Shown: positions 14,697 through 46,752 of the stretch, in pieces
Layout: each line of letters starts with the position of its first letter
How positions within the stretch are numbered: the first letter of the stretch is position 1
Source: Escherichia coli
GTDB taxonomy: Bacteria > Pseudomonadota > Gammaproteobacteria > Enterobacterales > Enterobacteriaceae
Strand: one strand, 5' to 3'
Assembly (NCBI RefSeq): GCF_009931435.1
Contig: NZ_CP043414.1
DNA length: 64,000 nt
Translations under genes and position numbers: made by a program
The notes under the pieces: model-generated
The model's database searches: none
What the model was told of the DNA's origin: nothing
Seen by the model: only the letters and a program-made list of their open reading frames with translations

Positions 14697-15584
14697 ATGG
14701 ATCAAAAACAGATTGAAGAAATTGTACGCAGCGTGATGGCGTCAATGGGACAAGCGGCCCCCGCGCCGTCAGAAGCAAAATGCGCCACTACCACCTGTGC
14801 GGCACCGGTGACCTCGGAAAGCTGCGCGCTGGATTTAGGTTCCGCGGAAGCAAAAGCGTGGATTGGCGTTGAAAACCCGCATCGCGCAGACGTATTAACA
14901 GAACTGCGCCGCAGCACCGTGGCTCGCGTCTGTACCGGTCGTGCTGGTCCGCGTCCGCGTACCCAGGCGCTGTTGCGTTTCCTGGCCGATCACTCTCGTT
15001 CGAAAGACACCGTACTGAAAGAAGTGCCGGAAGAGTGGGTGAAAGCGCAGGGCTTGCTGGAAGTCCGCTCTGAAATTAGCGACAAAAATCTCTATCTGAC
15101 TCGCCCGGATATGGGCCGCCGCTTGTGTGCAGAGGCTGTTGAAGCGCTGAAAGCGCAGTGTGTTGCCAATCCGGACGTACAGGTGGTTATTTCCGATGGT
15201 CTGTCTACTGATGCGATCACCGTGAACTATGAAGAGATTCTGCCACCGCTGATGGCGGGCCTGAAACAGGCCGGGTTGAAAGTCGGCACACCGTTCTTTG
15301 TGCGTTACGGTCGCGTGAAGATTGAAGATCAGATTGGCGAACTTCTTGGCGCGAAAGTGGTGATCCTGCTGGTGGGTGAACGTCCGGGGTTGGGGCAGTC
15401 AGAAAGTCTCTCCTGCTACGCCGTTTACTCGCCGCGTATGGCAACCACCGTTGAGGCCGACCGTACCTGTATCTCTAACATTCACCAGGGCGGCACGCCG
15501 CCGGTTGAAGCCGCAGCCGTCATTGTGGATTTGGCGAAACGTATGCTGGAGCAGAAAGCATCCGGCATCAACATGACCCGATAA
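14697..15584 (+). CDS. eutC: ethanolamine ammonia-lyase small subunit EutC
   Basis: 295 aa; operon position. Confidence 0.92.
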
Positions 15585-15593
15585 GGAGGCATC

Positions 15594-16253
15594 ATGCCAG
15601 CTTTAGATTTGATTCGACCGTCGGTAACCGCCATGCGGGTGATTGCCTCTGTTAACGCCGAATTTGCGCGTGAACTGAAATTGCCGCCGCATATTCGTAG
15701 CCTCGGGCTGATTTCTGCTGATTCCGATGACGTCACCTACATTGCGGCTGACGAAGCGACCAAGCAGGCGATGGTTGAAGTCGTGTATGGTCGCTCGCTG
15801 TATGCGGGAGCCGCACACGGCCCGTCACCGACTGCCGGTGAAGTGCTGATTATGCTCGGGGGGCCAAACCCGGCGGAAGTGCGTGCTGGTCTGGATGCGA
15901 TGGTTGCGCATATTGAAAATGGCGCGGCTTTCCAGTGGGCTAACGACGCGCAAGATACGGCATTCCTGGCACATGTAGTTTCGCGTACCGGTTCTTATCT
16001 CTCATCAACCGCCGGGATCACGCTTGGCGATCCGATGGCGTATTTGGTGGCACCGCCGCTGGAAGCGACCTACGGCATTGATGCAGCGTTGAAATCTGCC
16101 GACGTGCAGCTGGTGACCTATGTCCCGCCACCGTCTGAAACCAACTACTCGGCAGCATTTTTAACCGGTAGCCAGGCCGCGTGTAAAGCAGCCTGTAACG
16201 CCTTTACCGATGCAGTGCTGGAAATCGCGCGTAATCCAATCCAGCGTGCGTAA
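15594..16253 (+). CDS. eutL: microcompartment shell protein EutL (tandem BMC)
   Basis: 219 aa; operon position. Confidence 0.9.
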
Positions 16254-16265
16254 CGGAGGTTGCCG

Positions 16266-16766
16266 ATGATCAATGCACTGGGATTGCTGGAAGTGGACGG
16301 CATGGTCGCCGCGATAGATGCAGCTGATGCCATGCTCAAAGCAGCTAACGTTCGTCTGCTCAGTCACGAAGTGCTTGACCCTGGTCGCCTAACGCTGGTG
16401 GTGGAAGGCGATCTGGCGGCGTGTCGTGCGGCGCTGGACGCAGGTTGTGCTGCCGCGATGCGTACCGGGCGTGTCATCAGCCGTAAGGAGATCGGTCGGC
16501 CAGACGATGACACCCAGTGGCTGGTTACTGGCTTTAACCGCCAGCCGAAGCAATCCGTAAAGGAACCCGACGCGCCAGTTATCGTCGCGGAATCTGCTGA
16601 CGAGTTGTTGGCGCTGTTAACATCAGTACGTCAGGGAATGACGGCAGGAGAAGTGGCTGCCCACTTTGGCTGGCCGCTGGAAAAAGCCAGAAATGCGCTC
16701 GAACAGCTCTTTTCTGCCGGGACGTTACGTAAACGCAGTAGTCGTTATCGTCTCAAGCCCCATTAA
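16266..16766 (+). CDS. eutK: microcompartment shell protein EutK (BMC domain plus C-terminal helix-turn-helix-like tail)
   Basis: 166 aa from ATG at 16266 (MINALGLLEVDGMVAAIDAADAM...), RBS ggagg at 16255-16259. Confidence 0.88.
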   Translation: MINALGLLEVDGMVAAIDAADAMLKAANVRLLSHEVLDPGRLTLVVEGDLAACRAALDAGCAAAMRTGRVISRKEIGRPDDDTQWLVTGFNRQPKQSVKEPDAPVIVAESADELLALLTSVRQGMTAGEVAAHFGWPLEKARNALEQLFSAGTLRKRSSRYRLKPH

Positions 16767-16811
16767 CCTGTCGGAGGTGCCGGGTGTCCTACAACACCCG
16801 GCATTAACATC

Positions 16812-17864
16812 ATGAAAAAGACCCGTACAGCCAATTTGCACCATCTTTATCATGAACCCTTACCCGAAAACCTGAAGCTCACGCCGAAGGTCGAAGTGGA
16901 TAATGTTCATCAACGGCAAACAACGGATGTCTATGAACATGCTTTGACGATTACCGCCTGGCAGCAGATTTACGATCAGCTGCATCCGGGCAAGTTTCAT
17001 GGTGAATTTACGGAAATTCTACTCGATGATATTCAGGTTTTTCGTGAATACACCGGTCTGGCGCTGCGTCAGTCGTGCCTGGTCTGGCCGAACTCGTTCT
17101 GGTTTGGCATTCCGGCGACACGCGGTGAGCAGGGATTTATCGGTTCGCAATGTCTGGGAAGCGCAGAAATAGCGACGCGCCCTGGAGGAACCGAGTTTGA
17201 ATTAAGTACGCCGGACGATTACACGATCCTTGGCGTGGTGCTTTCTGAAGATGTCATCACCCGTCAGGCTAACTTTTTGCATAACCCGGAAAGGGTGCTG
17301 CATATGTTACGTAACCAGTCGGCGCTGGAAGTGAAAGAGCAGCATAAAGCCGCGCTGTGGGGCTTTGTCCAACAGGCTCTGGCGACATTTTGCGAGAACC
17401 CGGAAAATCTCCATCAGCCTGCAGTGCGAAAAGTGCTGGGGGATAATTTGCTAATGGCGATGGGGGCGATGCTGGAAGAAGCGCAGCCAATGGTGACGGC
17501 GGAAAGTATCAGCCACCAGAGTTACCGTCGCTTGTTGACCCGCGCGCGTGAATATGTGCTGGAGAATATGTCCGAACCGGTAACCGTGCTGGATTTGTGC
17601 AATCAACTGCATGTCAGCCGCCGCACGCTACAAAACGCGTTTCACGCTCTTTTAGGCATTGGCCCAAACGCGTGGCTGAAACGCATTCGCCTGAACGCCG
17701 TGCGCCGCGAACTGATAAGCCCGTGGTCGCAAAGTACAACGGTCAAAGATGCCGCCATGCAGTGGGGATTCTGGCATCTGGGGCAATTCGCCACGGATTA
17801 CCAGCAACTGTTTGCCGAGAAGCCGTCTCTGACGCTACATCAGCGGATGCAGGAACTGGAGTGA
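16812..17864 (+). CDS. eutR: AraC-family transcriptional activator of the eut operon
   Basis: 350 aa; AraC-type HTH in C-terminal region; last gene of the cluster. Confidence 0.9.
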
Positions 17865-17940
17865 GGGTGAGGGCCGGATGAGGATGGTGTTTGATCCGGT
17901 CCATAGTGAAGTTACAAATTACGTTGAATTGCTATGTATT

Positions 17941-18258
17941 TTATTGCCCAACGGGATAGGCGATAAACAAACCGACAATTGTCAGAATACACGCCAGCAG
18001 GAATACCAACATACAATTTACGCGCTTTCGCGAAATTTTAAATAAATAGCAAAATAGTGTTGTTACCACGATCACTACCGGGATAGTCATAAAATTAATA
18101 ACGATGAGTGCTATCAATCCAAAACTTGCTCCTCCACCGTGGGGAATAAAAATGTGTTCTTCAAAATAAACTTCTATAGCAAATGCCAGCACACATCCCA
18201 GAAAACTCATATCCAGATGAGGGTGCCATTTACTTTCTTTATTTGATGTGTCTGACAT
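17941..18258 (-). CDS. hypothetical small membrane protein (three predicted TM helices), AT-rich
   Basis: 105 aa ORF with three hydrophobic stretches; gggag RBS ~10 nt upstream of ATG; clearly AT-rich by eye against flanking genes; sits in an interval I do not recognise as conserved core. Confidence 0.5.
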   Translation of the reverse strand: MSDTSNKESKWHPHLDMSFLGCVLAFAIEVYFEEHIFIPHGGGASFGLIALIVINFMTIPVVIVVTTLFCYLFKISRKRVNCMLVFLLACILTIVGLFIAYPVGQ

Positions 18259-18298
18259 TCTTAAATGCTCCCGTGAGCAAACTGGCGCAAAATAATTT

Positions 18299-19561
18299 CT
18301 AAGATTGCTGATAAGACGTCGCTGTTGTCCGGCACTCCGGGCAGATAAACGCGTAAATTATCCCTTCGCCATATTGTTCAATATCGGCATAATCCAGTTG
18401 CGCAAGAAACATCATTGTGTGGGAACATTGCGGACAGAGAGGATATTCCGCGTCCTGAATCCAGGTTGGATGCCCGCCAAGTTGCGAGAAAGAGACAGGT
18501 AAAAATGGGTCTGCGGCAAATAACGGTGACCTAAGGTTTCCCTGTCTCATGCTGTTTACAGGGAGTCGACGCCATTCCGATACATCATCCGGCAGCTAGG
18601 CAGGCGGGATATTTTTTGCAGACAAATGAGCGTTACCCTTTGAGTCCATGTAGCCGAAAATGGTGCTGTAGGCGGTGCAACATTCGCAAGTCACGACGCG
18701 AAAACTGCCGTTATCGCTAAGACCCGTTGCCTTCAGGTCAACGTCGAAAAGATTTGTTAGGGGCAATGCGCACTTTGGACAGGTATCGCTGCGTTCATCA
18801 ACAACACGCAAAGCTTCGCAAGACCCGGTGCTTTTCATCTCCAGATGAAAACATTGAGGAAAATAGAGATTACGCCTTTGATCTTCAGCGGTTAACTCCC
18901 AACCGGCCTCATGCGCATATTCTTCTGGCGCGATGTAAAGTGAACTGCGCCACAGCGGCGGGTTATTGCGCCAGTAGGCAAAACGTTCAACAACAACGTC
19001 ATCCCCAATCCATGCCAGACATTGCAGAATACAATTTCTGTTTTCTGCATCATCCTCAACCCGTTCTAACAGCGTATCGCGAACATCCGCTGGGGCGCGG
19101 TGGAAAGGCAGAGGAGAATAAGCGTCTAAATCATCATAAGAGATCCACTCTCGTAAATATGCATCCAGATTTGCCTGGGTAAACGCCGCCAGACAAAGAC
19201 AAATCTCCTGAGCGTGTTCATATTCACCAGACGCAAAGCGTTCTGTGGCGTAATCAGCCATCAGCTGCGCTTGATCGGCGGTCAACTGTTGATACAGGGC
19301 ATCGGTGGGAGCGGGGCAGGGAGTCCAGTCGATTAACGCATCGAATTTCCGTGGCTGGTGAACTAATTTCAGCATGGCAATCGGATCGCTTAGCCCAGCA
19401 AACACATTCACGGTCTTTTTATTTTTCCTGATATATTCATCGTGCTCACGCTGCTGTTGTGCCTGAACGCAGGGCATACAGTATCCGTCAGTACGCGCAG
19501 CGGTTTCCGGAAGAATGGTTGATGTACAAGCGGGGCTTTTACAGGGAATACGGTGAGTCAT
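18299..19561 (-). pseudogene. DUF1963 (YwqG-like) family gene interrupted by one in-frame TAG at 18596-18598
   Basis: 321 aa ORF (19561..18596) and 83 aa ORF (18550..18299) are in the same frame, separated by TAG plus 15 sense codons; downstream part carries GGHPTWIQDAEYPLCPQCSHTMMFLAQLD...GEGIIYAFICPEC, matching the conserved DUF1963 core; strong RBS aaggag before the ATG at 19561, none before the internal ATG. Confidence 0.6.
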
Positions 19562-19698
19562 AGAGGCGCTCCTTGCCTGAGGATATTAAGTCGAAAGAGA
19601 TTATTATTAGATATTAGGGTGTCACTATGGCACACAAATTAAACAGAATTAATTTCAAGCCACAAACATAGGGTTATTTTTCTTTTATTTTCATGATA

Positions 19699-20601
<903 letters not shown>

Positions 20602-21471
20602 TTACCGCTTTCTCGAGTGTGCTTTCTGGTTGTCAAACCAGTGGAAATAACTGATCACGCCTTCGGCAATGGCTGTGGCGATTTTCTGGCGAAATGCCGC
20701 CGTGCCTAACAGCCGCTCTTCTTCCGGGTTGGTGATAAAAGAAGTTTCCACCAGCACCGAAGGAACAGATGGCGATTTCAACACTACAAACGCGGCTTGT
20801 TCGGTGTTGCGACTGTGCAGCTTATGCACCGGCTTAATCTTCTTCAGAATATGTGAGCCGAGCGTCAGGCTGTTTTTAATAGTATCGGTTTGTACCAGAT
20901 CAAACAGCACTTGTTGCAATAGGTGATCCTTGTCAGTCGCTTTTTTACCGGCAACTTCATCAGCGCGGTTTTCGCGTTCAGACAAGTATTTCGCCATTGC
21001 GCTACTTGCGCCGCGGTTCGAGAGAGCAAATACCGAAGCACCGGCAGCTTTCGGGTTAGTAAAGCCGTCGGCGTGAATTGACATAAACAGGTCAGCGCCA
21101 TGTTTATGGGCGATTTCAACGCGATCGTACAGCGGGATAAACGTATCGCCAGAACGCGTTAAACGCGCATCAATGCCATGATTACGCAAAATGGAACGGA
21201 CGTTTTTGGCAATCGCCAGCACCACATGTTTTTCTTTCGATCCATTGCGACCAATCGCTCCGGTATCAATTCCGCCGTGGCCTGGATCGAGAACAACGAC
21301 ACGTTTGCCGCCGCTTTTTTTGGCTTTCGGCTTACTGTGTCCGTTACTGGTTTTTAAAGGTTCTTCTTTGGCGATGGCTTGCGACATTCCTGACAACGTC
21401 AGGGCAGCCAATCCGGCTTTCAGCACCTGGCGGCGCGAAGTGAGTGTTTTTAGTGGTTTAAAAGTGCTCAT
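20602..21471 (-). CDS. amiA: N-acetylmuramoyl-L-alanine amidase AmiA (Tat-exported)
   Basis: 289 aa; twin-arginine signal SRRQVLKAG; amidase_3 domain. Confidence 0.92.
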   Translation of the reverse strand: MSTFKPLKTLTSRRQVLKAGLAALTLSGMSQAIAKEEPLKTSNGHSKPKAKKSGGKRVVVLDPGHGGIDTGAIGRNGSKEKHVVLAIAKNVRSILRNHGIDARLTRSGDTFIPLYDRVEIAHKHGADLFMSIHADGFTNPKAAGASVFALSNRGASSAMAKYLSERENRADEVAGKKATDKDHLLQQVLFDLVQTDTIKNSLTLGSHILKKIKPVHKLHSRNTEQAAFVVLKSPSVPSVLVETSFITNPEEERLLGTAAFRQKIATAIAEGVISYFHWFDNQKAHSRKR

Positions 21472-21684
21472 ACGGCCTGAGTTGTAATAATAAAGTTCCA
21501 GATGTTATATCGTATCGCGTAATCCGTTACGACCGTTTGCTGTTGAGAATTGTTTTACTTTTCATTTCAATAGTTGACAACTCCCCATTATGCCACTTTT
21601 TCAACCGATTTTCGTCAGATATTGGCTAATTCGACCGTTCACGCCATAATCAGCCTTTTAATCCGCAAAAAGGTAACCAATACC

Positions 21685-22110
21685 ATGGAGATACGCGTAT
21701 TTCGCCAGGAAGATTTCGAAGAGGTCATTACCCTTTGGGAGCGTTGCGACTTGCTGCGTCCGTGGAACGATCCGGAAATGGACATCGAGCGCAAAATGAA
21801 CCATGACGTCAGTCTGTTTCTGATCGCTGAGGTGAACGGTGAAGTGGTCGGAACGGTGATGGGCGGTTATGACGGGCATCGCGGATCCGCTTATTATCTT
21901 GGCGTGCATCCTGAGTTTCGTGGGCGTGGCATTGCCAATGCGTTGCTTAATCGGCTGGAGAAAAAACTGATTGCTCGCGGCTGTCCGAAAATTCAGATCA
22001 ATGTGCCGGAAGATAACGACATGGTGCTCGGAATGTATGAACGCCTTGGATATGAACACGCCGACGTGCTGAGTCTGGGCAAGCGTTTGATTGAAGATGA
22101 AGAGTACTGA
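21685..22110 (+). CDS. ypeA: GNAT family N-acetyltransferase YpeA
   Basis: 141 aa from ATG at 21685 ([14 protein letters not shown]...); GNAT motifs. Confidence 0.85.
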
Positions 22111-22546
22111 GTTTCATCCTGCCCATTATGATGCGCACGGACGCCTGCGTTTACCTTTTCTCTTCTGGCTTGTGCTGTTGCTTCAGGCGCGAACCTGGGT
22201 GCTGTTTGTCATTGCCGGTGCGTCGCGCGAGCAGGGTACTGCGCTGCTAAATCTGTTTTATCCCGATCACGATAATTTCTGGCTGGGGTTGATTCCCGGT
22301 ATTCCGGCGGTGCTGGCGTTTTTGCTGAGTGGTCGGCGGGCTTCATTTCCCCGTATCTGGCATGTACTCTATTTTCTGTTGCTGTTGGCGCAGCTTGTTT
22401 TGCTTTGCTGGCAACCGTGGCTGTGGCTGAACGGTGAATCCGTTAGCGGTATCGGTCTGGCGCTGGTAGTGGCGGATATTGTGGCGTTAATCTGGCTGCT
22501 GACCAATCGACGTTTACGCGCTTGTTTTAATGAAGAAAAAGAATAA
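22097..22546 (+). CDS. yfeZ: inner membrane protein YfeZ
   Basis: 149 aa hydrophobic ORF overlapping the ypeA 3' end. Confidence 0.8.
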
Positions 22547-22606
22547 CGGCACTTTTTGGTGAATTTGCACTCCAAGCAACGTTATTGAATAACCAAAGGA
22601 AGTGAC

Positions 22607-23182
22607 ATGAAATCGCTGCGTTTAATGTTATGCGCTATGCCGTTGATGCTGACCGGCTGTTCAACGATGTCGTCAGTTAACTGGTCTGCCGCTAATCCGT
22701 GGAACTGGTTTGGGTCGTCCACCAAAGTGAGCGAGCAGGGCGTGGGTGAATTAACGGCGTCCACACCACTGCAAGAACAAGCTATTGCCGATGCGCTTGA
22801 TGGTGATTATCGCCTGCGCAGCGGAATGAAAACCGCGAACGGCAACGTGGTGCGCTTTTTTGAAGTGATGAAAGGCGACAACGTGGCGATGATAATTAAC
22901 GGCGATCAGGGCACGATCAGCCGCATTGATGTGCTGGATAGCGATATTCCTGCTGACACCGGTGTTAAAATCGGTACACCGTTTAGCGACCTTTACAGCA
23001 AAGCATTTGGCAATTGCCAAAAAGCTGATGGTGATGATAATCGTGCCGTCGAATGTAAAGCTGAAGGCAGTCAACATATTAGCTACCAGTTCAGCGGGGA
23101 ATGGAGTGGTCCTGAAGGGTTAATGCCTTCGGACGATACCTTGAAAAACTGGAAAGTCAGTAAAATTATCTGGCGGCGTTAA
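22607..23182 (+). CDS. yfeY: lipoprotein YfeY
   Basis: 191 aa; lipobox LTGC in signal peptide. Confidence 0.85.
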   Translation: MKSLRLMLCAMPLMLTGCSTMSSVNWSAANPWNWFGSSTKVSEQGVGELTASTPLQEQAIADALDGDYRLRSGMKTANGNVVRFFEVMKGDNVAMIINGDQGTISRIDVLDSDIPADTGVKIGTPFSDLYSKAFGNCQKADGDDNRAVECKAEGSQHISYQFSGEWSGPEGLMPSDDTLKNWKVSKIIWRR

Positions 23183-39299: not shown

Positions 39300-40271
39300 T
39301 TACTGTTGCAATTCTTTCTCAGTGAAGAGATCGGCAAACAATGCGGTGCTTAAATAACGCTCACCCGATGACGGTAGAATAACCACAATATTCTTGTTGG
39401 TAAAGCTTTCATCTTCTTGTAGTTTCAACGCTGCAGCAACAGCTGCTCCAGAAGAGATACCTGCAAGAATACCTTCCTCTTCCATCAGACGACGCGCGGT
39501 AGAAATAGCTTCTTCATTGGTGATGCCAATGACTTTATCGACCAGCTTGAGATCAAGGTTAGCCGGGATAAAACCAGCGCCAATCCCCTGAATTTTATGC
39601 GGGCCAGGTTTAATCTCTTCACCTGCCAGCGCCTGGGCGATAACCGGAGAATCGGTTGGCTCCACGGCGACAGAGATGAGATCAGTCTTGCCTTTGGTGC
39701 CTTTAATGTAGCGGCTGACGCCGGTCAGCGTACCGCCAGTCCCAACACCAGCAATAAATACATCAACCTGACCGTCGGTATCTTCCCAGATCTCCGGACC
39801 GGTGGTTTTTTCGTGAATTTCAGGGTTTGCCGGATTGCTGAATTGTTGCAGCAGTAGGTATTTCTCTGGATTGCTGGCGACAATTTCTTCTGCTTTTTGG
39901 ATTGCGCCTTTCATGCCTTTAGCACCTTCGGTCAGCACCAGGTTTGCACCTAACGCTTTCAGCAGCTTGCGGCGTTCAATACTCATGGTTTCTGGCATGG
40001 TCAGGGTGAGTTTGTAACCGCGAGCGGCAGCCACATAGGCCAGTGCAATCCCGGTATTACCGCTGGTTGGTTCAACCAGTTCAACGCCTGGTTTCAGCAC
40101 GCCGCGCTTTTCGGCATCCCAAATCATATTGGCACCGATACGGCACTTAACGCTGAAGCTGGGGTTACGAGATTCCACCTTCGCCAGAATGCGTCCGTTA
40201 CCGATGCGATTCAGGCGAACCAGCGGTGTGTGACCGATAGTCAGCGAGTTATCTTCAAAAATCTTACTCAT
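39300..40271 (-). CDS. cysK: cysteine synthase A (O-acetylserine sulfhydrylase A)
   Basis: 323 aa; PLP-enzyme sequence. Confidence 0.95.
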
Positions 40272-40455
40272 GGCCTGTCCTTAACTGTATGAAATTGGGA
40301 TACAACAGGTAGCATACCCGCTCAGAGAATATGCGGAAGTAAGGATTTAGCATATCTATATGCAGAAGGGAAATAATGACATGCAAGATGGAATAAGGGG
40401 TGGCATAAGCCACCCCTGTTTCACACAAACGGTTTACAAAATAACCGGTAGATTG

Positions 40456-41217
40456 TTACCGCCACATCGCGTGTTTATCGCGATAGCAATCGACCCACAT
40501 CGCCGTCGCGCCACAAACGGCAACGGGCATAATGAACAGATTAAGCAGCGGGATCATCGTAAACAGGCTGGTTAAAGCACCAAACTGCATATTGGTGATT
40601 TTGCGTGTGCGCAGGGCGGTGCGCATCTCTTTAAACGGCACTTTGTGGTTATCGAAGGGGTAATCGCAATACTGGATGGCTAACATCCAGGCACTAAACA
40701 GGAACCACAGTACCGGCGCGACGGTTTGCCCAATGCCAGGGATGAAGTAAAGAATTAGCAATACAATCGCCCGTGGCAGATACCAGGCAAATTTTTGCCA
40801 TTCGCGTTTCATGATTCGCGGCACATCTTTCATGATACCGAAAATTCCGGTATCTGGCGGTGTAGCGCCAGTCAGTCTTGCTTCCAGTTGTTCAGCCAAT
40901 AAGCCGTTGAACGGAGCAGCAATCCAGTTAGCAATCGTTGAGAAGAAATAGCCAAACACTAACAGCACAGAGATGACAGCCAGGGGCCACAACAGATAGC
41001 TCAGCCATTGTAACCAGTCCGGAACATAACTCATGAGAGTCGGGATCCAGACATCGAGTTGCGTAAAGAGCCACCAGAATGCGCCCCCCATCAACAAAAT
41101 ATTGACCAACAGCGGTAAAATAACAAAACGCCGAATCCCAGGTTGCGAGACGAGCTTCCAGCCTTGCGCAAAATAGTAAAAACCGCTGCGTGGGGCAGAT
41201 GTGAATGATGAAACCAT
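40456..41217 (-). CDS. cysZ: sulfate transporter CysZ
   Basis: 253 aa polytopic membrane protein. Confidence 0.9.
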
Positions 41218-41446
41218 AATCAGGATGAGCTCCTTTTGACCAATCCCAGGAAAATTCTGCGTATTTTACCGGGTAATTGCGCAATGGACAGTTAGGATAT
41301 GTTCGAAAAAACAGCAAAAAGCACGATTTCATCTATCTTTGTGCTGTGAAAGTTAATAGTGCACTTGCACTTGAGGTAATCGGCAAATACTCTTAGTGAG
41401 TAAATGTTTGCCGTGGTGGCAAGGTGTTAGAACAACAGAGAATATA

Positions 41447-42445
41447 ATGATGCAGGATTTGCGTCTGATATTAATCATTGTTGGCGCGATCGCCATAATC
41501 GCTTTACTGGTACATGGTTTCTGGACCAGCCGTAAAGAACGATCTTCTATGTTCCGCGATCGGCCATTAAAACGAATGAAGTCAAAACGTGACGACGATT
41601 CTTATGACGAGGATGTCGAAGATGATGAGGGCGTTGGTGAGGTTCGTGTTCACCGCGTGAATCATGCCCCGGCTAACGCCCAGGAGCATGAGGCTGCTCG
41701 TCCGTCGCCGCAACACCAGTACCAACCGCCTTATGCGTCTGCGCAGCCGCGTCAACCGGTCCAGCAGCCGCCTGAAGCGCAGGTACCGCCGCAACATGCT
41801 CCGCGTCCAACGCAGCCGGTGCAGCAACCCGTGCAGCAGCCTGCCTATCAGCCTCAGCCTGAACAGCCGTTGCAGCAGCCAGTTTCGCCACAGGTCGCGT
41901 CAGCGCCGCAGCCAGTGCATTCAGCACCGCAACCGGCACAACAGGCTTTCCAGCCTGCAGAACCTGTAGCGGCACCACAGCCTGAGCCTGTAGCGGAACC
42001 GGCTCCAGTTATGGATAAACCGAAGCGCAAAGAAGCGGTGATTATCATGAACGTCGCGGCGCATCACGGTAGCGAGTTAAACGGTGAACTGCTTCTTAAC
42101 AGCATTCAACAAGCGGGCTTCATTTTTGGCGATATGAACATTTACCATCGTCATCTTAGCCCGGATGGCAGCGGCCCGGCGTTATTCAGCCTGGCGAATA
42201 TGGTGAAACCGGGAACCTTCGATCCTGAAATGAAGGATTTCACTACTCCGGGTGTCACTATCTTTATGCAGGTACCGTCTTACGGTGACGAGCTGCAGAA
42301 CTTTAAGCTGATGCTGCAATCTGCGCAGCATATTGCCGATGAAGTGGGCGGTGTAGTGCTTGACGATCAGCGCCGTATGATGACTCCGCAGAAATTGCGC
42401 GAGTACCAGGACATCATCCGCGAAGTCAAAGACGCCAACGCCTGA
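41447..42445 (+). CDS. zipA: cell division protein ZipA
   Basis: 332 aa from ATG at 41447 ([26 protein letters not shown]...): N-terminal TM anchor, long P/Q-rich linker, C-terminal FtsZ-binding domain. Confidence 0.9.
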
Positions 42446-42506
42446 TACACTTAAGGCAAATTAACTCCTCTTCGAACCCCCGCTTGTCGGGGGTTTTTAG
42501 CATTGA

Positions 42507-44531
<2,025 letters not shown>

Positions 44532-44532
44532 G

Positions 44533-44751
44533 ATGGAAAAAGAGCAGCTGATTGAAATAGCCAATACGATAATGCCGTTTGGCAAATACAAAGGGCGTCG
44601 CTTAATCGACCTGCCGGAGGAGTATCTTCTGTGGTTTGCCCGCAAAGATGAGTTCCCGGCAGGGAAGCTCGGTGAGCTAATGCAAATCACGCTGCTGATT
44701 AAAACCGAGGGGCTGACGCAACTGGTCCAGCCCCTGAAACGCCCACTTTAA
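44533..44751 (+). CDS. ypeB: small protein YpeB (DUF3820-like)
   Basis: 72 aa from ATG at 44533 immediately after the ligA stop (MEKEQLIEIANTIMPFGKYKGRRL...). Confidence 0.75.
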   Translation: MEKEQLIEIANTIMPFGKYKGRRLIDLPEEYLLWFARKDEFPAGKLGELMQITLLIKTEGLTQLVQPLKRPL

Positions 44752-45746
44752 GCTTTATCGGCGCTGCTTTCCTGCTGCGCCTGTAACTGTTCGGTCTGGC
44801 GTTTGTATCGACGCGCCAGCACCGCACAGACCATCAATTGGATCTGATGGAAAATCATCAGAGGCAGCACCATCATACCGATCACCGATGTGGGGAACAG
44901 AATGTTTGCCATCGGGATGCCATTTGCCAGACTCTTTTTCGAACCACAAAAGACGATAGTAATTTCATCTGCCTTATTGAAGCCCAGTCGGCGTGCCATA
45001 AAGACGTTAACTACAATCACGATAGCCAGAAGAACGCAGCTAACCACCACGATAAATAGCAATGATCCCCAGCCAACTTTATGCCAGATGCCGTTAACGA
45101 CGGCTTCGCTGAACGCAGTATAAACCACCAACAGAATGGACGTCTGGTCAGTTTTCGCAATCCATTTTTTATTTCGTGACACCCAGTTGCCAATCCAAGG
45201 GCGAGAAAGATGTCCCAGCACAAACGGCAGCAGCAGTTGCAGCATTATCTTACCTACCTGCTCAAGGCTGCCCCCTGCACCGTGAACATTCATCACCAGG
45301 CCAACCAGCAACGGTGAAAGGAAAATCCCCAGTAGGCTGGATGCTGACGCAGAACAAACCGCCGCCGCGACGTTACCGCCCGCCATTGACGTGAAGGCGA
45401 TTGCAGACTGCACGGTCGCGGGGAGAATGCACAAGTAGAGAAAACCGGAGTAGAGCATCGGGTCGACATTTACCGGTTTCCACCAGGCAAACAGCACGCC
45501 CAGAATTGGAAACAGCACGAAGGTGCTGCACATTACCCACAAATGCAGTCGCCAGTGACCACCGCCAGCAATAATCGCCTCACGCGACAACTTCGCGCCG
45601 TGCATAAAGAACAGCAGAGCAATAGCTGCGGTAGTCAGATTTTCAAAGAAGGGAACGAAATCGCCCCTGGCCGGAAAGAAAGAGGCCAGCAACACCACCG
45701 TGATCAGGGTTAAGGTGAAAGGATCGAGGATACGAAAAAGTTTCAT
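44748..45746 (-). CDS. yfeH: bile acid:sodium symporter family membrane protein YfeH
   Basis: 332 aa polytopic membrane protein. Confidence 0.88.
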   Translation of the reverse strand: MKLFRILDPFTLTLITVVLLASFFPARGDFVPFFENLTTAAIALLFFMHGAKLSREAIIAGGGHWRLHLWVMCSTFVLFPILGVLFAWWKPVNVDPMLYSGFLYLCILPATVQSAIAFTSMAGGNVAAAVCSASASSLLGIFLSPLLVGLVMNVHGAGGSLEQVGKIMLQLLLPFVLGHLSRPWIGNWVSRNKKWIAKTDQTSILLVVYTAFSEAVVNGIWHKVGWGSLLFIVVVSCVLLAIVIVVNVFMARRLGFNKADEITIVFCGSKKSLANGIPMANILFPTSVIGMMVLPLMIFHQIQLMVCAVLARRYKRQTEQLQAQQESSADKA

Positions 45747-45984
45747 AAAGACTCCAGATGAACGATGCTTTCATTGTGCGTTCTTCTGATTGATAAATAA
45801 AACTGAATTGCTTAACAATTTGTGCGCGATAATGGAGAGTGAGTGGGGGCTCGCTTCGACTGGCGGGCTGAGTTGGGCAAGCAAATCCGAACGAATCAAA
45901 TAAGGGCGGTCAATGAGTGCGCTTGATGACCGCTGTAATATTATTGCTGACGACCGTAGCCGTTTTAGTGTTATCAACGCAGGC

Positions 45985-46752
45985 TTAGAACTGATATTTT
46001 ATTGAATAAATAATGCCATCCTGGAGGAAGGCTTCACCCAGTTTATTATCTGCGTAGCGATATTGAATCCCTGCCGTAAAATGCGGTGTCGCATTCCACC
46101 AAAACGCTACTGCTCCGTTTATACCTTCTTTTCCGCCATTACCTGCTGCATATGTAGCGTCGCGGTCAAATTCGTATTCATTCCAGTTAGTCAGGCTGAA
46201 TTTTTCGCTACCAAGCGTGAAACTGTATCCGGCAACCCAGCCCAAAACATAGCCATTGTCACCGGTATAATAGGTTTGATCGGTGTAACGTTTCGCGAAG
46301 AATGGCTTAAACCAGTAACCATTTCCCGTAAAATTGTATCCAAGCCCGTAAAGGAATGTATCATCATAGAAGTTAACACGTTCAGGTGAACCGTAAGTCC
46401 CGTAAGCGTGAAGATAAAGATTCAGTCCTGTATCACCAAGATAAATGCGGTTGGTACTTTTAAAAGTATAACGTTGTTCACTGCCAGATTTTGAATGTCG
46501 GCCATTATAGAAGTTCTCCCAATCGAAGAACCCGTACATTTCTCCCCAACTAAAGTTAGCACCACCTTCTAATTCCAGATAGCCAAAATCATCTTTATGG
46601 GACTTATTACTGGTTTTCTCTGTCGTGCGGGATGTCCAGTCAAGATAATGCAGACCAATGTCAGCAAAGCCCCCTTTAAACTCGGCATAAGACATTTGCG
46701 GAAAAGCCATGGGAACCAGACCAAGGCTTAATGCAAGAAGCTGTTTTTTCAT
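45985..46752 (-). CDS. yfeN: Tsx-family outer membrane nucleoside channel-like protein YfeN
   Basis: ATG at 46752 (MKKQLLALSLGLVPMAFPQMSYA signal peptide), Tyr/Gly-rich beta-barrel sequence ending ...YQF. Confidence 0.85.
   Translation of the reverse strand: MKKQLLALSLGLVPMAFPQMSYAEFKGGFADIGLHYLDWTSRTTEKTSNKSHKDDFGYLELEGGANFSWGEMYGFFDWENFYNGRHSKSGSEQRYTFKSTNRIYLGDTGLNLYLHAYGTYGSPERVNFYDDTFLYGLGYNFTGNGYWFKPFFAKRYTDQTYYTGDNGYVLGWVAGYSFTLGSEKFSLTNWNEYEFDRDATYAAGNGGKEGINGAVAFWWNATPHFTAGIQYRYADNKLGEAFLQDGIIYSIKYQF

What the first reader, a model, noticed from the sequence alone, without database searches (positions are those of the whole stretch)
17865..19698. About 1.8 kb accessory segment between eutR and hemF with a DUF1963-like gene and an AT-rich membrane protein gene
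eutR (+) and hemF (-) are convergent and, as I recall, adjacent in the K-12 reference. Here they are separated by two minus-strand genes with their own AT-rich promoter region (19562-19698) and good RBSs. DUF1963/YwqG-like proteins are functionally uncharacterised, and a small polytopic membrane partner is reminiscent of toxin/immunity or stress modules. The membrane-protein gene is clearly AT-rich by eye against its neighbours (not computed), suggesting horizontal acquisition.
Basis: partly seen in the sequence, partly recalled or inferred. Interest (0 to 1): 0.7.

Follow-up and report, generated by a model that had tools for sequence, protein, structure and literature searches.

The report
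Old hemF-linked gene pair, one broken
The 1.8 kb between eutR and hemF holds an old enterobacterial gene pair of unknown function, a zinc-binding DUF1963 (TYPP-domain) protein and a small membrane protein YpfK, that most E. coli have deleted; in this genome a stop codon has broken the DUF1963 gene, so the locus is ordinary and decaying rather than a fresh toxin or defence island.

Summary
Compared with K-12, where the eutR and hemF stop codons lie 5 nt apart, window 17868-19698 (1831 bp) is extra DNA. It carries two minus-strand genes. One is a 420-codon DUF1963 gene (18299-19561), cut by a single amber codon (W322*, 18596-18598). The other is a 105-aa, three-helix membrane protein gene (17941-18258; GC 38%, GC3 0.36), which belongs to Pfam YpfK. 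Only 28 of 5426 complete E. coli genomes carry the segment.

hemF followed by the DUF1963 gene is found at this position in Escherichia, Salmonella, Citrobacter, Klebsiella, Kluyvera, Yokenella and Superficieibacter, and in enterobacterial metagenome contigs. Its synonymous divergence is of the same order as hemF's. There are no mobility genes, tRNA genes or junction repeats. It therefore looks like an ancestral locus lost from most E. coli, not a recent island.

Each gene occurs without the other, and neither matches a toxin, antitoxin or defence profile, so a toxin/immunity pair is not supported.

The parts
17868..19698 (.). Segment absent from K-12 and from about 99.5% of complete E. coli genomes (1831 bp)
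   Evidence: BLAST breakpoints against K-12 derivative L005; junction sequences; 28 of 5426 genomes carry it
17941..18258 (-). ypfK-family gene: intact 105-aa small membrane protein with three predicted helices (13-32, 43-73, 77-100)
   Evidence: ORF. The exact protein is in the same 90% cluster as P0124, which carries Pfam PF26378 YpfK. Hydropathy gives 3 TM segments. AF2 gives 3 helices at pLDDT 59. dN/dS is 0.16-0.29. GC 38%, GC3 0.36.
18299..19561 (-). DUF1963/TYPP-family gene, a 420-codon reading frame, here a pseudogene
   Evidence: 97.4% aa identity to the intact WP_000149701.1; Pfam DUF1963; full-length homologues in many bacteria
18596..18598 (-). Amber stop replacing Trp322 (TGG to TAG; changed base at 18597)
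   Evidence: DNA alignment with MFDS1022581: the only difference in 451 columns
18599..19561 (-). Truncated 321-aa product. It keeps the zinc ribbon (residues 1-31), the HEAT-like helical domain (about 50-220) and the first TYPP repeat with C261/C264/C292/C295.
   Evidence: ORF list; AF2 model of the intact protein; invariant columns
18299..18595 (-). Region after the stop codon. It encodes the second TYPP repeat, including the invariant SQxGGxPxWxQ motif (residues 359-369) and C376/C379/C407/C410. The residual 83-aa ORF (18299-18550) has no evident RBS.
   Evidence: Alignment A2; the Pfam match lies at residues 359-406; sequence read
19562..19698 (-). AT-rich (33% GC) hemF-DUF1963 intergenic region with an AAGGAG RBS. 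No consensus promoter or terminator was detected. It is not conserved between genera, and in other strains it is a slot where extra genes are inserted.
   Evidence: insertions of TacAT, an SNF2 helicase plus a hypothetical gene and an ankyrin gene
18259..18298 (-). 40-nt spacer between the DUF1963 gene and ypfK (15-19 nt in Kluyvera and a related metagenome contig), compatible with co-transcription
16812..17864 (+). eutR, the left flank, convergent with the pair
   Evidence: ORF; RefSeq annotation of the homologous locus
19699..20598 (-). hemF, the right flank, on the same strand as the pair and upstream of it
   Evidence: ORF; RefSeq annotation

Best explanation
**What it is (shown).** The segment is an old enterobacterial two-gene locus placed directly downstream of hemF on the same strand. 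Most E. coli have deleted it cleanly. A minority of Escherichia lineages keep it, including the divergent lineage this window comes from.

**Gene 1.** It encodes a cytoplasmic protein of about 420 aa, built from three parts:
- an N-terminal four-cysteine zinc ribbon;
- a HEAT-like helical repeat domain;
- a two-repeat TYPP (DUF1963/YwqG/PDCD2-type) beta domain that carries two further four-cysteine sites and the family's GGxP and Gln motifs.

In this window the gene is dead. An amber codon at Trp322 removes the second, most conserved TYPP repeat.

**Gene 2.** ypfK encodes an intact small membrane protein with three helices. The family is restricted to Enterobacteriaceae.

**How it works (inferred).** The intact gene-1 product is most likely a non-enzymatic protein-binding adaptor or dedicated chaperone. 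It would hold an extended segment of a client protein in the TYPP pocket, with the HEAT and zinc-ribbon modules adding contacts. This follows the eukaryotic TYPP proteins PDCD2 and Tsr4, which chaperone ribosomal protein uS5. The bacterial client is unknown.

YpfK is a lineage-specific neighbour. It is probably co-transcribed in Escherichia, but it is not an obligate partner.

The pair is not a toxin-antitoxin, toxin-immunity or known defence module, and the locus is under weak selection and decaying.
For: **Position and rarity**
- Breakpoints against K-12.
- 28 of 5426 complete E. coli genomes carry the segment.

**Ancestral synteny**
- hemF then DUF1963 (then YpfK) in E. albertii, Klebsiella, Kluyvera and an enterobacterial metagenome contig.
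- hemF, YpfK, DUF1963 in Salmonella Paratyphi A.
- hemF then DUF1963 without YpfK in Yokenella, Superficieibacter and the UBA3516 MAG, and hemF, ankyrin gene, DUF1963 in Citrobacter.
- YpfK proteins are also recorded from E. fergusonii and a cryptic Escherichia species.

**Vertical signal**
- dS of the DUF1963 gene is of the same order as dS of hemF (0.57 vs 0.55 for E. albertii; 0.97 vs 1.50 for Citrobacter).
- dN/dS is 0.15-0.30 for both genes against 0.04-0.07 for hemF, meaning real genes under weaker constraint.
- There are no junction repeats, tRNA genes or mobility genes.

**Pseudogene and decay**
- A single TGG to TAG change lies upstream of the invariant motif at residues 359-369 and of the third zinc site.
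- Decay appears elsewhere too: an internally deleted remnant in a second Salmonella-type contig (L020), and truncated or frameshifted Escherichia variants P0014, P0016, P0017 and P0019.

**Structure**
- AF2 mean pLDDT 93, pTM 0.88.
- Twelve invariant cysteines form three Cys4 groups, and G362, G363, P365 and Q369 are invariant.
- Pfam DUF1963 matches.

**Functional analogy**
- The TYPP superfamily and its proposed chaperone-like protein-binding role: PMC4275035.
- PDCD2 and Tsr4 as dedicated uS5 chaperones: PMC7736825 and bioRxiv 10.1101/559146 (titles and abstracts).

**No obligate partner**
- Among 80 loci from species-representative genomes, no neighbouring gene family occurs in more than 17 loci. 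None has a small polytopic membrane ORF just downstream, and only two have one just upstream.
- A YpfK profile finds only 8 representatives among 1.84 billion proteins.
Against: - The mechanism rests on analogy. No bacterial TYPP protein has a tested function, and bacterial uS5 lacks the eukaryotic N-terminal extension that PDCD2/Tsr4 bind (my own knowledge, not tested here). The client cannot be inferred.
- The Pfam match is weak and covers only about a quarter of the model. No sequence-level hit to any solved structure was found.
- Faster evolution, patchy distribution, repeated loss, and a position next to a slot that receives TacAT, an SNF2 helicase, ankyrin genes, and Tli3/TPR genes would also fit a conflict-related role such as an immunity protein.
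- Both genes have lower GC3 than hemF in every genus examined. The family is commonest in Firmicutes. An ancient transfer into Enterobacteriaceae is therefore plausible.
- Re-acquisition of the segment in some E. coli by recombination from other Escherichia is not excluded.
- The conserved association of YpfK with the DUF1963 gene, even where gene order differs (Salmonella), leaves room for a functional link.
Confidence: 0.6

Rival explanations
1. The DUF1963 protein is an orphan immunity or anti-effector protein. It would bind and neutralise an incoming interbacterial toxin, and the region downstream of hemF would be a small 'immunity/defence slot'. YpfK could be a second, membrane-level immunity factor.
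For: - Other strains hold conflict-type genes in the same interval: a Tli3-family T6SS immunity gene plus TPR genes in WL297, TacAT in E7-1N7, a ZorD/DpdE-like SNF2 helicase in E2348/69, and an ankyrin-repeat gene in Citrobacter.
- The gene evolves faster than its neighbour (55-57% aa identity where hemF keeps about 86%; dN/dS 0.15-0.3), is patchily distributed and is repeatedly lost.
- HEAT and TYPP are protein-binding modules.
- Orphan immunity genes can persist or decay without harm to the cell (my own knowledge), which fits the independent presence and absence of the two genes.
Against: - No cognate toxin gene is next to it in any of roughly 100 loci examined.
- There is no match to PADLOC or NCBIfam immunity or defence models.
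- Among the 80 best loci of the species-representative scan the family is mostly a single-copy, stand-alone gene in Paenibacillus species, which is unlike typical variable immunity cassettes.
- Three structural zinc sites and 37-60% identity over the full length across phyla indicate a conserved cellular function.
- The neighbouring conflict genes are strain-specific insertions, not conserved partners.
Confidence: 0.12
2. One reading: a recently acquired two-gene toxin/immunity, toxin-antitoxin or phage-defence module made of the DUF1963 protein and a membrane partner.
For: - Two co-oriented genes with a short spacer (40 nt; 15-19 nt in Kluyvera and a related metagenome contig).
- Rare in E. 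coli.
- ypfK is compositionally atypical (GC3 0.36).
- The pair stays together despite a swapped gene order in Salmonella.
Against: - Each gene is found without the other, in both directions, which is incompatible with an addictive toxin/antidote pair.
- Here the large gene is knocked out while ypfK is intact, and in the Salmonella-type contig L020 the same is true.
- There are no toxin, antitoxin or defence profile hits.
- Synteny across several genera, dS of the same order as hemF's, and the absence of mobility signatures argue against recent acquisition.
Confidence: 0.05
3. The two proteins work together. YpfK would be the membrane anchor or the client of the TYPP protein, for example a dedicated chaperone or insertion helper for a small membrane protein, or a membrane-tethered sensor. 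The enterobacterial DUF1963 genes lacking YpfK would have lost or replaced the partner.
For: - Every YpfK gene found lies next to a DUF1963 gene or its remnant, beside hemF.
- The association survives a gene-order swap.
- Spacers are short.
- Both genes show similar dN/dS.
- YpfK exists nowhere else.
Against: - YpfK stays intact where the DUF1963 gene is only a remnant (the Salmonella-type contig L020) or carries a stop codon (this window).
- The DUF1963 gene is intact without YpfK in four enterobacterial genera or MAGs and in all non-enterobacterial taxa examined.
- Co-location may only reflect shared vertical inheritance at one locus.
- No interaction test was possible with these tools.
Confidence: 0.15

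Closest known systems
Bacillus subtilis YwqG (PDB 1PV5) and Pfam DUF1963 (PF09234)
   Different: - This family adds an N-terminal Cys4 zinc ribbon and a HEAT-like domain of about 170 residues.
- YwqG's own function is also unknown.
Bacterial TYPP 'family two' of Burroughs and Aravind 2014 (PMC4275035)
   Same: The paper describes family-two members as TYPP domains fused to an uncharacterised N-terminal alpha-helical domain, several with an additional N-terminal C4 zinc finger. This is the architecture seen here. A Salmonella enterica protein served as a full-length seed in that paper.
   Different: - Membership could not be checked, because the stored supplement is cut before the TYPP lists.
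- The paper assigns the finger to the DksA/TraR type, and no such Pfam match was obtained here.
- In the passages read, the paper does not mention the hemF linkage, YpfK or gene decay.
Eukaryotic PDCD2 / PDCD2L / Tsr4, dedicated chaperones of ribosomal protein uS5
   Same: They belong to the same TYPP domain superfamily (PMC4275035). They give the only experimentally supported mode of action for the fold, which is binding and escorting a specific client protein (PMC7736825 and 10.1101/559146).
   Different: - There is no detectable direct sequence match.
- PDCD2 has a MYND insertion instead of the zinc ribbon plus HEAT domain.
- The 2014 analysis found no contextual evidence that the bacterial versions act in ribosome biogenesis.
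- The genes here are dispensable and decaying, unlike the essential eukaryotic ones.
Two-gene toxin-antitoxin or toxin-immunity cassettes, for example the TacAT pair inserted beside this locus in strain E7-1N7
   Same: Two small co-oriented genes in a variable chromosomal slot, rare within the species.
   Different: - The genes occur independently of each other.
- There are no toxin, antitoxin or defence profile matches.
- The chromosomal position is conserved across genera.

Membership tests
Pfam DUF1963 / TYPP domain superfamily | Match to the Pfam PF09234 profile | tested here: met
   E 5.8e-5, 24.0 bits, residues 359-406 against model positions 1-51 of 216. All 33 family members match at E<=0.1 and 18 at E<=0.001. 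The match is weak and partial but consistent.
Pfam DUF1963 / TYPP domain superfamily | GGxP motif and highly conserved Gln (PMC4275035) | tested here: met
   G362, G363, P365 and Q369 are invariant in 33 sequences spanning Proteobacteria and Firmicutes.
Pfam DUF1963 / TYPP domain superfamily | Pair of CxxC motifs in each of the two repeats (present in a subset of the family) | tested here: met
   C261/C264/C292/C295 and C376/C379/C407/C410 are invariant.
Pfam DUF1963 / TYPP domain superfamily | Two-repeat all-beta fold as in YwqG (1PV5) | tested here: met
   [not shown]
Pfam DUF1963 / TYPP domain superfamily | Complete domain encoded in this window | tested here: not met
   The amber codon at residue 322 precedes the second repeat and the GGxP/Gln motif. 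The window copy is a pseudogene of a family member.
TYPP 'family two' (Burroughs and Aravind 2014) | N-terminal alpha-helical domain plus a C4 zinc finger ahead of the TYPP domain | tested here: inconclusive
   The architecture is present: C7/C12/C28/C31 are invariant and helices span residues 60-220. The paper's member lists were not readable, and no DksA/TraR finger profile matched.
Pfam YpfK (PF26378) | Match to the family profile | tested here: met
   The exact window protein (P0140) sits in the 90% cluster of P0124, which has a precomputed PF26378.1 hit, as do 18 of the 19 homologue clusters. The Pfam copy used by profile_search returned no YpfK match.
Pfam YpfK (PF26378) | Small polytopic membrane protein | tested here: met
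   Three hydrophobic segments by Kyte-Doolittle scan. Three helices (13-32, 43-73, 77-100) in a low-confidence AF2 model.
Toxin-antitoxin / toxin-immunity two-gene module | The two genes are co-dependent, so one is not found without the other | tested here: not met
   YpfK occurs with only a DUF1963 remnant or with a nonsense allele (this window). DUF1963 occurs without YpfK.
Toxin-antitoxin / toxin-immunity two-gene module | Similarity to a known toxin, antitoxin, immunity or defence family | tested here: not met
   No PADLOC or NCBIfam hits for either protein at E<=0.1, apart from two sub-threshold zinc-ribbon and homeobox fragments.
Toxin-antitoxin / toxin-immunity two-gene module | Toxicity of one product that is neutralised by the other | not testable with these tools
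   This needs expression experiments.
Recently acquired genomic island / mobile element | Integrase or transposase, tRNA or att site, flanking repeats | tested here: not met
   Only two genes are present, neither mobility-related. There is no tRNA gene within 10 kb. No junction repeats beyond chance-level short matches were found.
Recently acquired genomic island / mobile element | Absent from the same site in related genera, and divergence out of step with the flanking core genes | tested here: not met
   The same site is occupied in several enterobacterial genera. dS is of the same order as for hemF. Both genes do have lower GC3 than hemF, so an ancient transfer remains possible.

The most novel reading that the evidence does not exclude
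The zinc-ribbon, HEAT and TYPP protein, possibly together with YpfK, would be a bacterial dedicated chaperone or adaptor for a specific client. Alternatively it would be an anti-effector or immunity factor whose repeated loss in Enterobacteriaceae reflects a changing conflict. Either outcome would give the first experimentally approachable function for the widespread bacterial DUF1963/TYPP proteins, using natural knock-outs such as this amber allele alongside intact alleles in EPEC E2348/69.
Probability: 0.12. Interest if true: 0.55.

Novelty: already known. Interest (0 to 1): 0.22.

Why it matters
It matters little for this window. Both genes are already in RefSeq, as 'DUF1963 domain-containing protein' WP_000149701.1 and 'hypothetical protein' WP_001285748.1. 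Both belong to Pfam families, and the domain superfamily and this architecture were described computationally in 2014.

The modest value of the work is threefold:
- It corrects the reading. This is an ancestral locus being lost, not a newly gained toxin or defence module.
- It documents natural null alleles (W322* here, a deletion remnant in a Salmonella-type contig) next to intact alleles in tractable strains. These could help anyone trying to find what bacterial TYPP proteins do.
- It flags the hemF-eutR interval as a small variable slot in Enterobacteriaceae.

Tried and rejected
- **Known defence, toxin or antitoxin families:** PADLOC and NCBIfam scans of both proteins gave nothing.
- **Sequence match to solved structures:** a profile of 33 homologues gave only chance-level hits, E 0.45 or worse. 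The fold-level comparison was needed.
- **Conserved operon partner outside Enterobacteriaceae:** clustering of all ORFs within 2.5 kb of 80 loci found no family in more than 17 loci, and essentially no small membrane ORFs nearby.
- **Remote YpfK homologues:** a profile search of 1.84 billion representatives found 8 proteins, all of the same narrow family.
- **Own promoter, terminator or RNA element in the intergenic regions:** the consensus scan, Rfam and folding all gave nothing significant. An alignment of the hemF-DUF1963 spacer across genera shows no conserved motif.
- **Mobile-element signatures:** none found.
- **Literature:** searches for ypfK, STM2452 and STM2453 gave only irrelevant hits. 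Searches for DUF1963 and YwqG gave only the 2014 domain paper and incidental mentions.
- **Source of the nonsense allele:** the exact truncated 321-aa product is not in the 15-billion-protein collection.
- **Tool failures:** Foldseek searches of the model against AFDB and PDB could not be run, through remote failures and later loss of the model.
- **Idea not pursued:** an AF2 test of a DUF1963-YpfK contact was considered and dropped, because the tool reports no inter-residue confidence.
- **Family-two member lists:** the supplement of PMC4275035 is truncated in the library.
Full report
**1. What is in the sequence**

Between eutR (16812-17864, + strand) and hemF (19699-20598, - strand) lie three minus-strand ORFs: 321 aa (18596-19561), 83 aa (18299-18550) and 105 aa (17941-18258).

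BLAST against a K-12 derivative shows that homology stops at 17867 and resumes at 19699. In K-12 the eutR and hemF stop codons are 5 nt apart.

The 321-aa and 83-aa ORFs are one gene. In E. coli MFDS1022581 the same DNA encodes a 420-aa 'DUF1963 domain-containing protein' (WP_000149701.1). Over the 451 bases aligned around the break, the only difference is TGG to TAG at codon 322, window 18596-18598.

The 105-aa protein is identical to the product of the RefSeq gene annotated there as 'hypothetical protein'.

Composition:

| Region | GC | GC3 |
|---|---|---|
| Membrane gene (ypfK) | 38.4% | 0.36 |
| DUF1963 gene | 49.8% | 0.48 |
| hemF-DUF1963 spacer (19562-19698) | 32.8% | n/a |
| Whole window | 51.6% | 0.58 +/- 0.07 (46 long ORFs) |

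Both genes have recognisable Shine-Dalgarno sequences. I found none of the following:
- a consensus promoter on the minus strand of the upstream spacer;
- a significant hairpin after hemF or after ypfK;
- an Rfam match;
- a tRNA gene;
- junction repeats beyond chance-level matches.

**2. Distribution in E. coli**

Only 28 of 5426 complete E. coli genomes contain the segment. All are chromosomal copies, and every copy whose context was examined lies at this locus. The remaining genomes match only the two flanks.

A core stretch of the window (ligA-cysK) is about 97% identical to most E. coli and 99% or more to only five genomes. The window therefore comes from a divergent E. coli lineage.

The flanks next to the indel are only about 92-93% identical to 'empty' genomes but 98.7% identical to the closest 'filled' genome, MFDS1022581. 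This suggests two old haplotypes.

Other filled strains show that the interval is a variable slot:

| Strain | Content of the interval |
|---|---|
| EPEC E2348/69 | hemF, hypothetical gene, SNF2 helicase (ZorD/DpdE-like), DUF1963, ypfK, eutR |
| E7-1N7 | TacA antitoxin and GNAT toxin pair between hemF and the DUF1963 gene |
| WL297 | ypfK replaced by two TPR genes, a Tli3-family immunity gene and a hypothetical gene |

**3. Distribution beyond E. coli**

Full-length homologues of about 420 aa occur in other Enterobacteriaceae at 55-82% identity, and in Chitinimonas and many Paenibacillus at about 37-54% identity.

A scan of one genome per species returned mostly Paenibacillus, with Clostridium, Lysinibacillus, Sporosarcina, Neobacillus and Cohnella. 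A few Proteobacteria, Verrucomicrobia and Planctomycetes were also hit.

In Enterobacteriaceae the gene lies downstream of hemF on the same strand, immediately so except where one gene intervenes:

| Taxon | Gene order |
|---|---|
| E. albertii, a Klebsiella sp., Kluyvera, a metagenome contig | hemF, DUF1963, YpfK |
| Citrobacter sp. | hemF, ankyrin gene, DUF1963, eutR |
| Yokenella, Superficieibacter, UBA3516 MAG | hemF, DUF1963, maeB (no YpfK) |
| Salmonella Paratyphi A | hemF, YpfK, DUF1963 (order swapped) |
| A second Salmonella-type contig (L020) | hemF, YpfK, internally deleted DUF1963 remnant, eutR |

YpfK proteins are also recorded from E. fergusonii and a cryptic Escherichia species.

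**4. Evolutionary signal**

Synonymous divergence of the DUF1963 gene is of the same order as that of hemF:

| Comparison with the window | dS, DUF1963 | dS, hemF |
|---|---|---|
| E. albertii | 0.57 | 0.55 |
| Citrobacter | 0.97 | 1.50 |

dN/dS is 0.15-0.30 for the DUF1963 gene and 0.16-0.29 for ypfK, against 0.04-0.07 for hemF. Both are therefore real coding genes under purifying but weaker selection.

Several Escherichia-derived database entries are N-terminally truncated or frameshifted. Together with the Salmonella-type remnant and the amber allele here, this points to recurrent decay.

Both genes have lower GC3 than hemF in every genus tested. Given the predominance of the family in Firmicutes, an ancient transfer into the enterobacterial ancestor is possible. 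The E. coli polymorphism itself is best explained by deletion.

**5. The DUF1963 protein**

Alignment of 33 diverse members shows 12 invariant cysteines in three Cys4 groups: 7/12/28/31, 261/264/292/295 and 376/379/407/410. An invariant S-Q-x-G-G-x-P-x-W-x-Q block spans residues 359-369.

AlphaFold2 with this alignment gives a confident model with mean pLDDT 93 and pTM 0.88. It has three parts:
- a zinc ribbon and a long helix (residues 1-47);
- a helical repeat domain (about 60-220);
- a beta-rich domain (221-420).

The Pfam DUF1963 match is weak and covers only residues 359-406. No sequence-level match to any PDB chain exists.

Burroughs and Aravind (PMC4275035) unified DUF1963/YwqG with eukaryotic TSR4, PDCD2 and PDCD2L as the TYPP domain. 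They defined it by the GGxP motif, a conserved Gln and optional CxxC pairs, and proposed a chaperone-like protein-protein interaction role. They also noted a bacterial 'family two' fused to an N-terminal alpha-helical domain and a C4 zinc finger. That architecture matches this protein, although I could not read their member lists.

PDCD2 and Tsr4 have since been reported as dedicated chaperones of ribosomal protein uS5 (PMC7736825; 10.1101/559146).

The W322* stop removes the whole second repeat, including the hallmark motif and the third zinc site. The window copy is therefore very probably non-functional.

**6. YpfK**

The protein has three hydrophobic helices and conserved WHPHL and FIPxGGG motifs.

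Homologue clusters carry the Pfam PF26378 'YpfK' label. The Pfam copy available to profile_search returned no YpfK match.

The family is tiny. It has 19 clusters at 90% identity and 8 representatives among 1.84 billion proteins. All are enterobacterial, and every member whose context was examined lies beside hemF.

**7. Are the two genes a functional pair?**

For:
- they are always neighbours;
- spacers are short (40 nt here; 15-19 nt in Kluyvera and a related metagenome contig);
- the association survives a gene-order swap in Salmonella.

Against:
- YpfK persists where the DUF1963 gene is dead;
- the DUF1963 gene persists without YpfK in four enterobacterial genera or MAGs, in E. coli WL297 and in all 77 non-enterobacterial loci of the genome scan;
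- in those 80 loci no neighbouring family is conserved (maximum 17 of 80) and essentially no small membrane ORF sits alongside.

This pattern excludes an addictive toxin/antidote relationship in either direction. Neither protein matches PADLOC or NCBIfam toxin, antitoxin or defence models. A looser functional link remains possible.

**8. Verdict**

Recent horizontal acquisition is not supported, and neither is a toxin/immunity module.

The best explanation is an ancestral, hemF-linked enterobacterial gene pair that is being lost. Its large gene encodes a zinc-ribbon, HEAT and TYPP protein. By fold and by analogy, that protein most likely acts as a protein-binding adaptor or chaperone for an unknown client.
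- Confidence in the 'what it is' part: about 0.8.
- Confidence in the mechanism: about 0.35.

The most interesting reading not excluded is a conflict-related or client-specific chaperone function that the natural null and intact alleles could make testable. I put this at roughly 0.12 probability.

Both genes and both families are already catalogued, so novelty is low and interest is about 0.2.

Noticed in passing
window 19562-19698 and 17865-17940; loci L002/L103, L003, L004, L006: The short intervals around the pair act as a variable slot in different strains. E2348/69 has a hypothetical gene plus a 1149-aa SNF2 helicase (best PADLOC hits ZorD and DpdE) between hemF and the DUF1963 gene. E7-1N7 has a TacA/GNAT toxin-antitoxin pair there. 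Citrobacter sp. S2-9 has an ankyrin-repeat gene there. WL297 has two TPR genes, a Tli3-family T6SS immunity gene and a 221-aa hypothetical gene in place of ypfK.
   Followed up: partly
window 40000-46000 and 14700-22900: Core genes of the window are only about 97% identical to most complete E. coli genomes, with 99% or more in just five (the best listed is goat isolate R32_14_1F). hemF differs from K-12 hemF with dS 0.24. The window therefore comes from a divergent Escherichia coli lineage, possibly one of the cryptic clades. The organism was not identified.
   Followed up: partly
L016 (Salmonella Paratyphi A) and L020 (a second Salmonella-type contig): In Salmonella the order of the two genes is swapped (hemF, ypfK, DUF1963). 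In L020, whose ypfK protein represents a cluster of 308 sequences, the DUF1963 gene is reduced to a remnant of about 450 bp with internal deletions, while ypfK stays intact.
   Followed up: yes
window 17941-18258; L010, L012, L016, L017, L101: ypfK and the DUF1963 gene have lower GC3 than the adjacent hemF in every genus examined, for example 0.36 and 0.48 against 0.58 here. The cause is not established: an ancient foreign origin, weak expression, or origin of ypfK from AT-rich spacer DNA.
   Followed up: partly
protein P0103 (Paenibacillus sp., 667 aa): One Paenibacillus homologue is fused to a DUF2625 (PF10946) domain. This could hint at a partner or pathway but was not examined.
   Followed up: no
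window 17872-17903: An imperfect inverted repeat (GGCCGGAT, 14 nt, ATCCGGTCC) lies between the convergent ends of eutR and ypfK. It has no T-run and folds no better than shuffled sequence (z -1.5), so it is at most a weak shared terminator.
   Followed up: yes
window 4 kb upstream in related locus L002 (E2348/69), positions 1276-1713: In E2348/69 the RefSeq annotation shows eutC as a partial pseudogene, with helix-turn-helix genes upstream. The eut operon is therefore interrupted in that strain. This does not concern the window itself.
   Followed up: no
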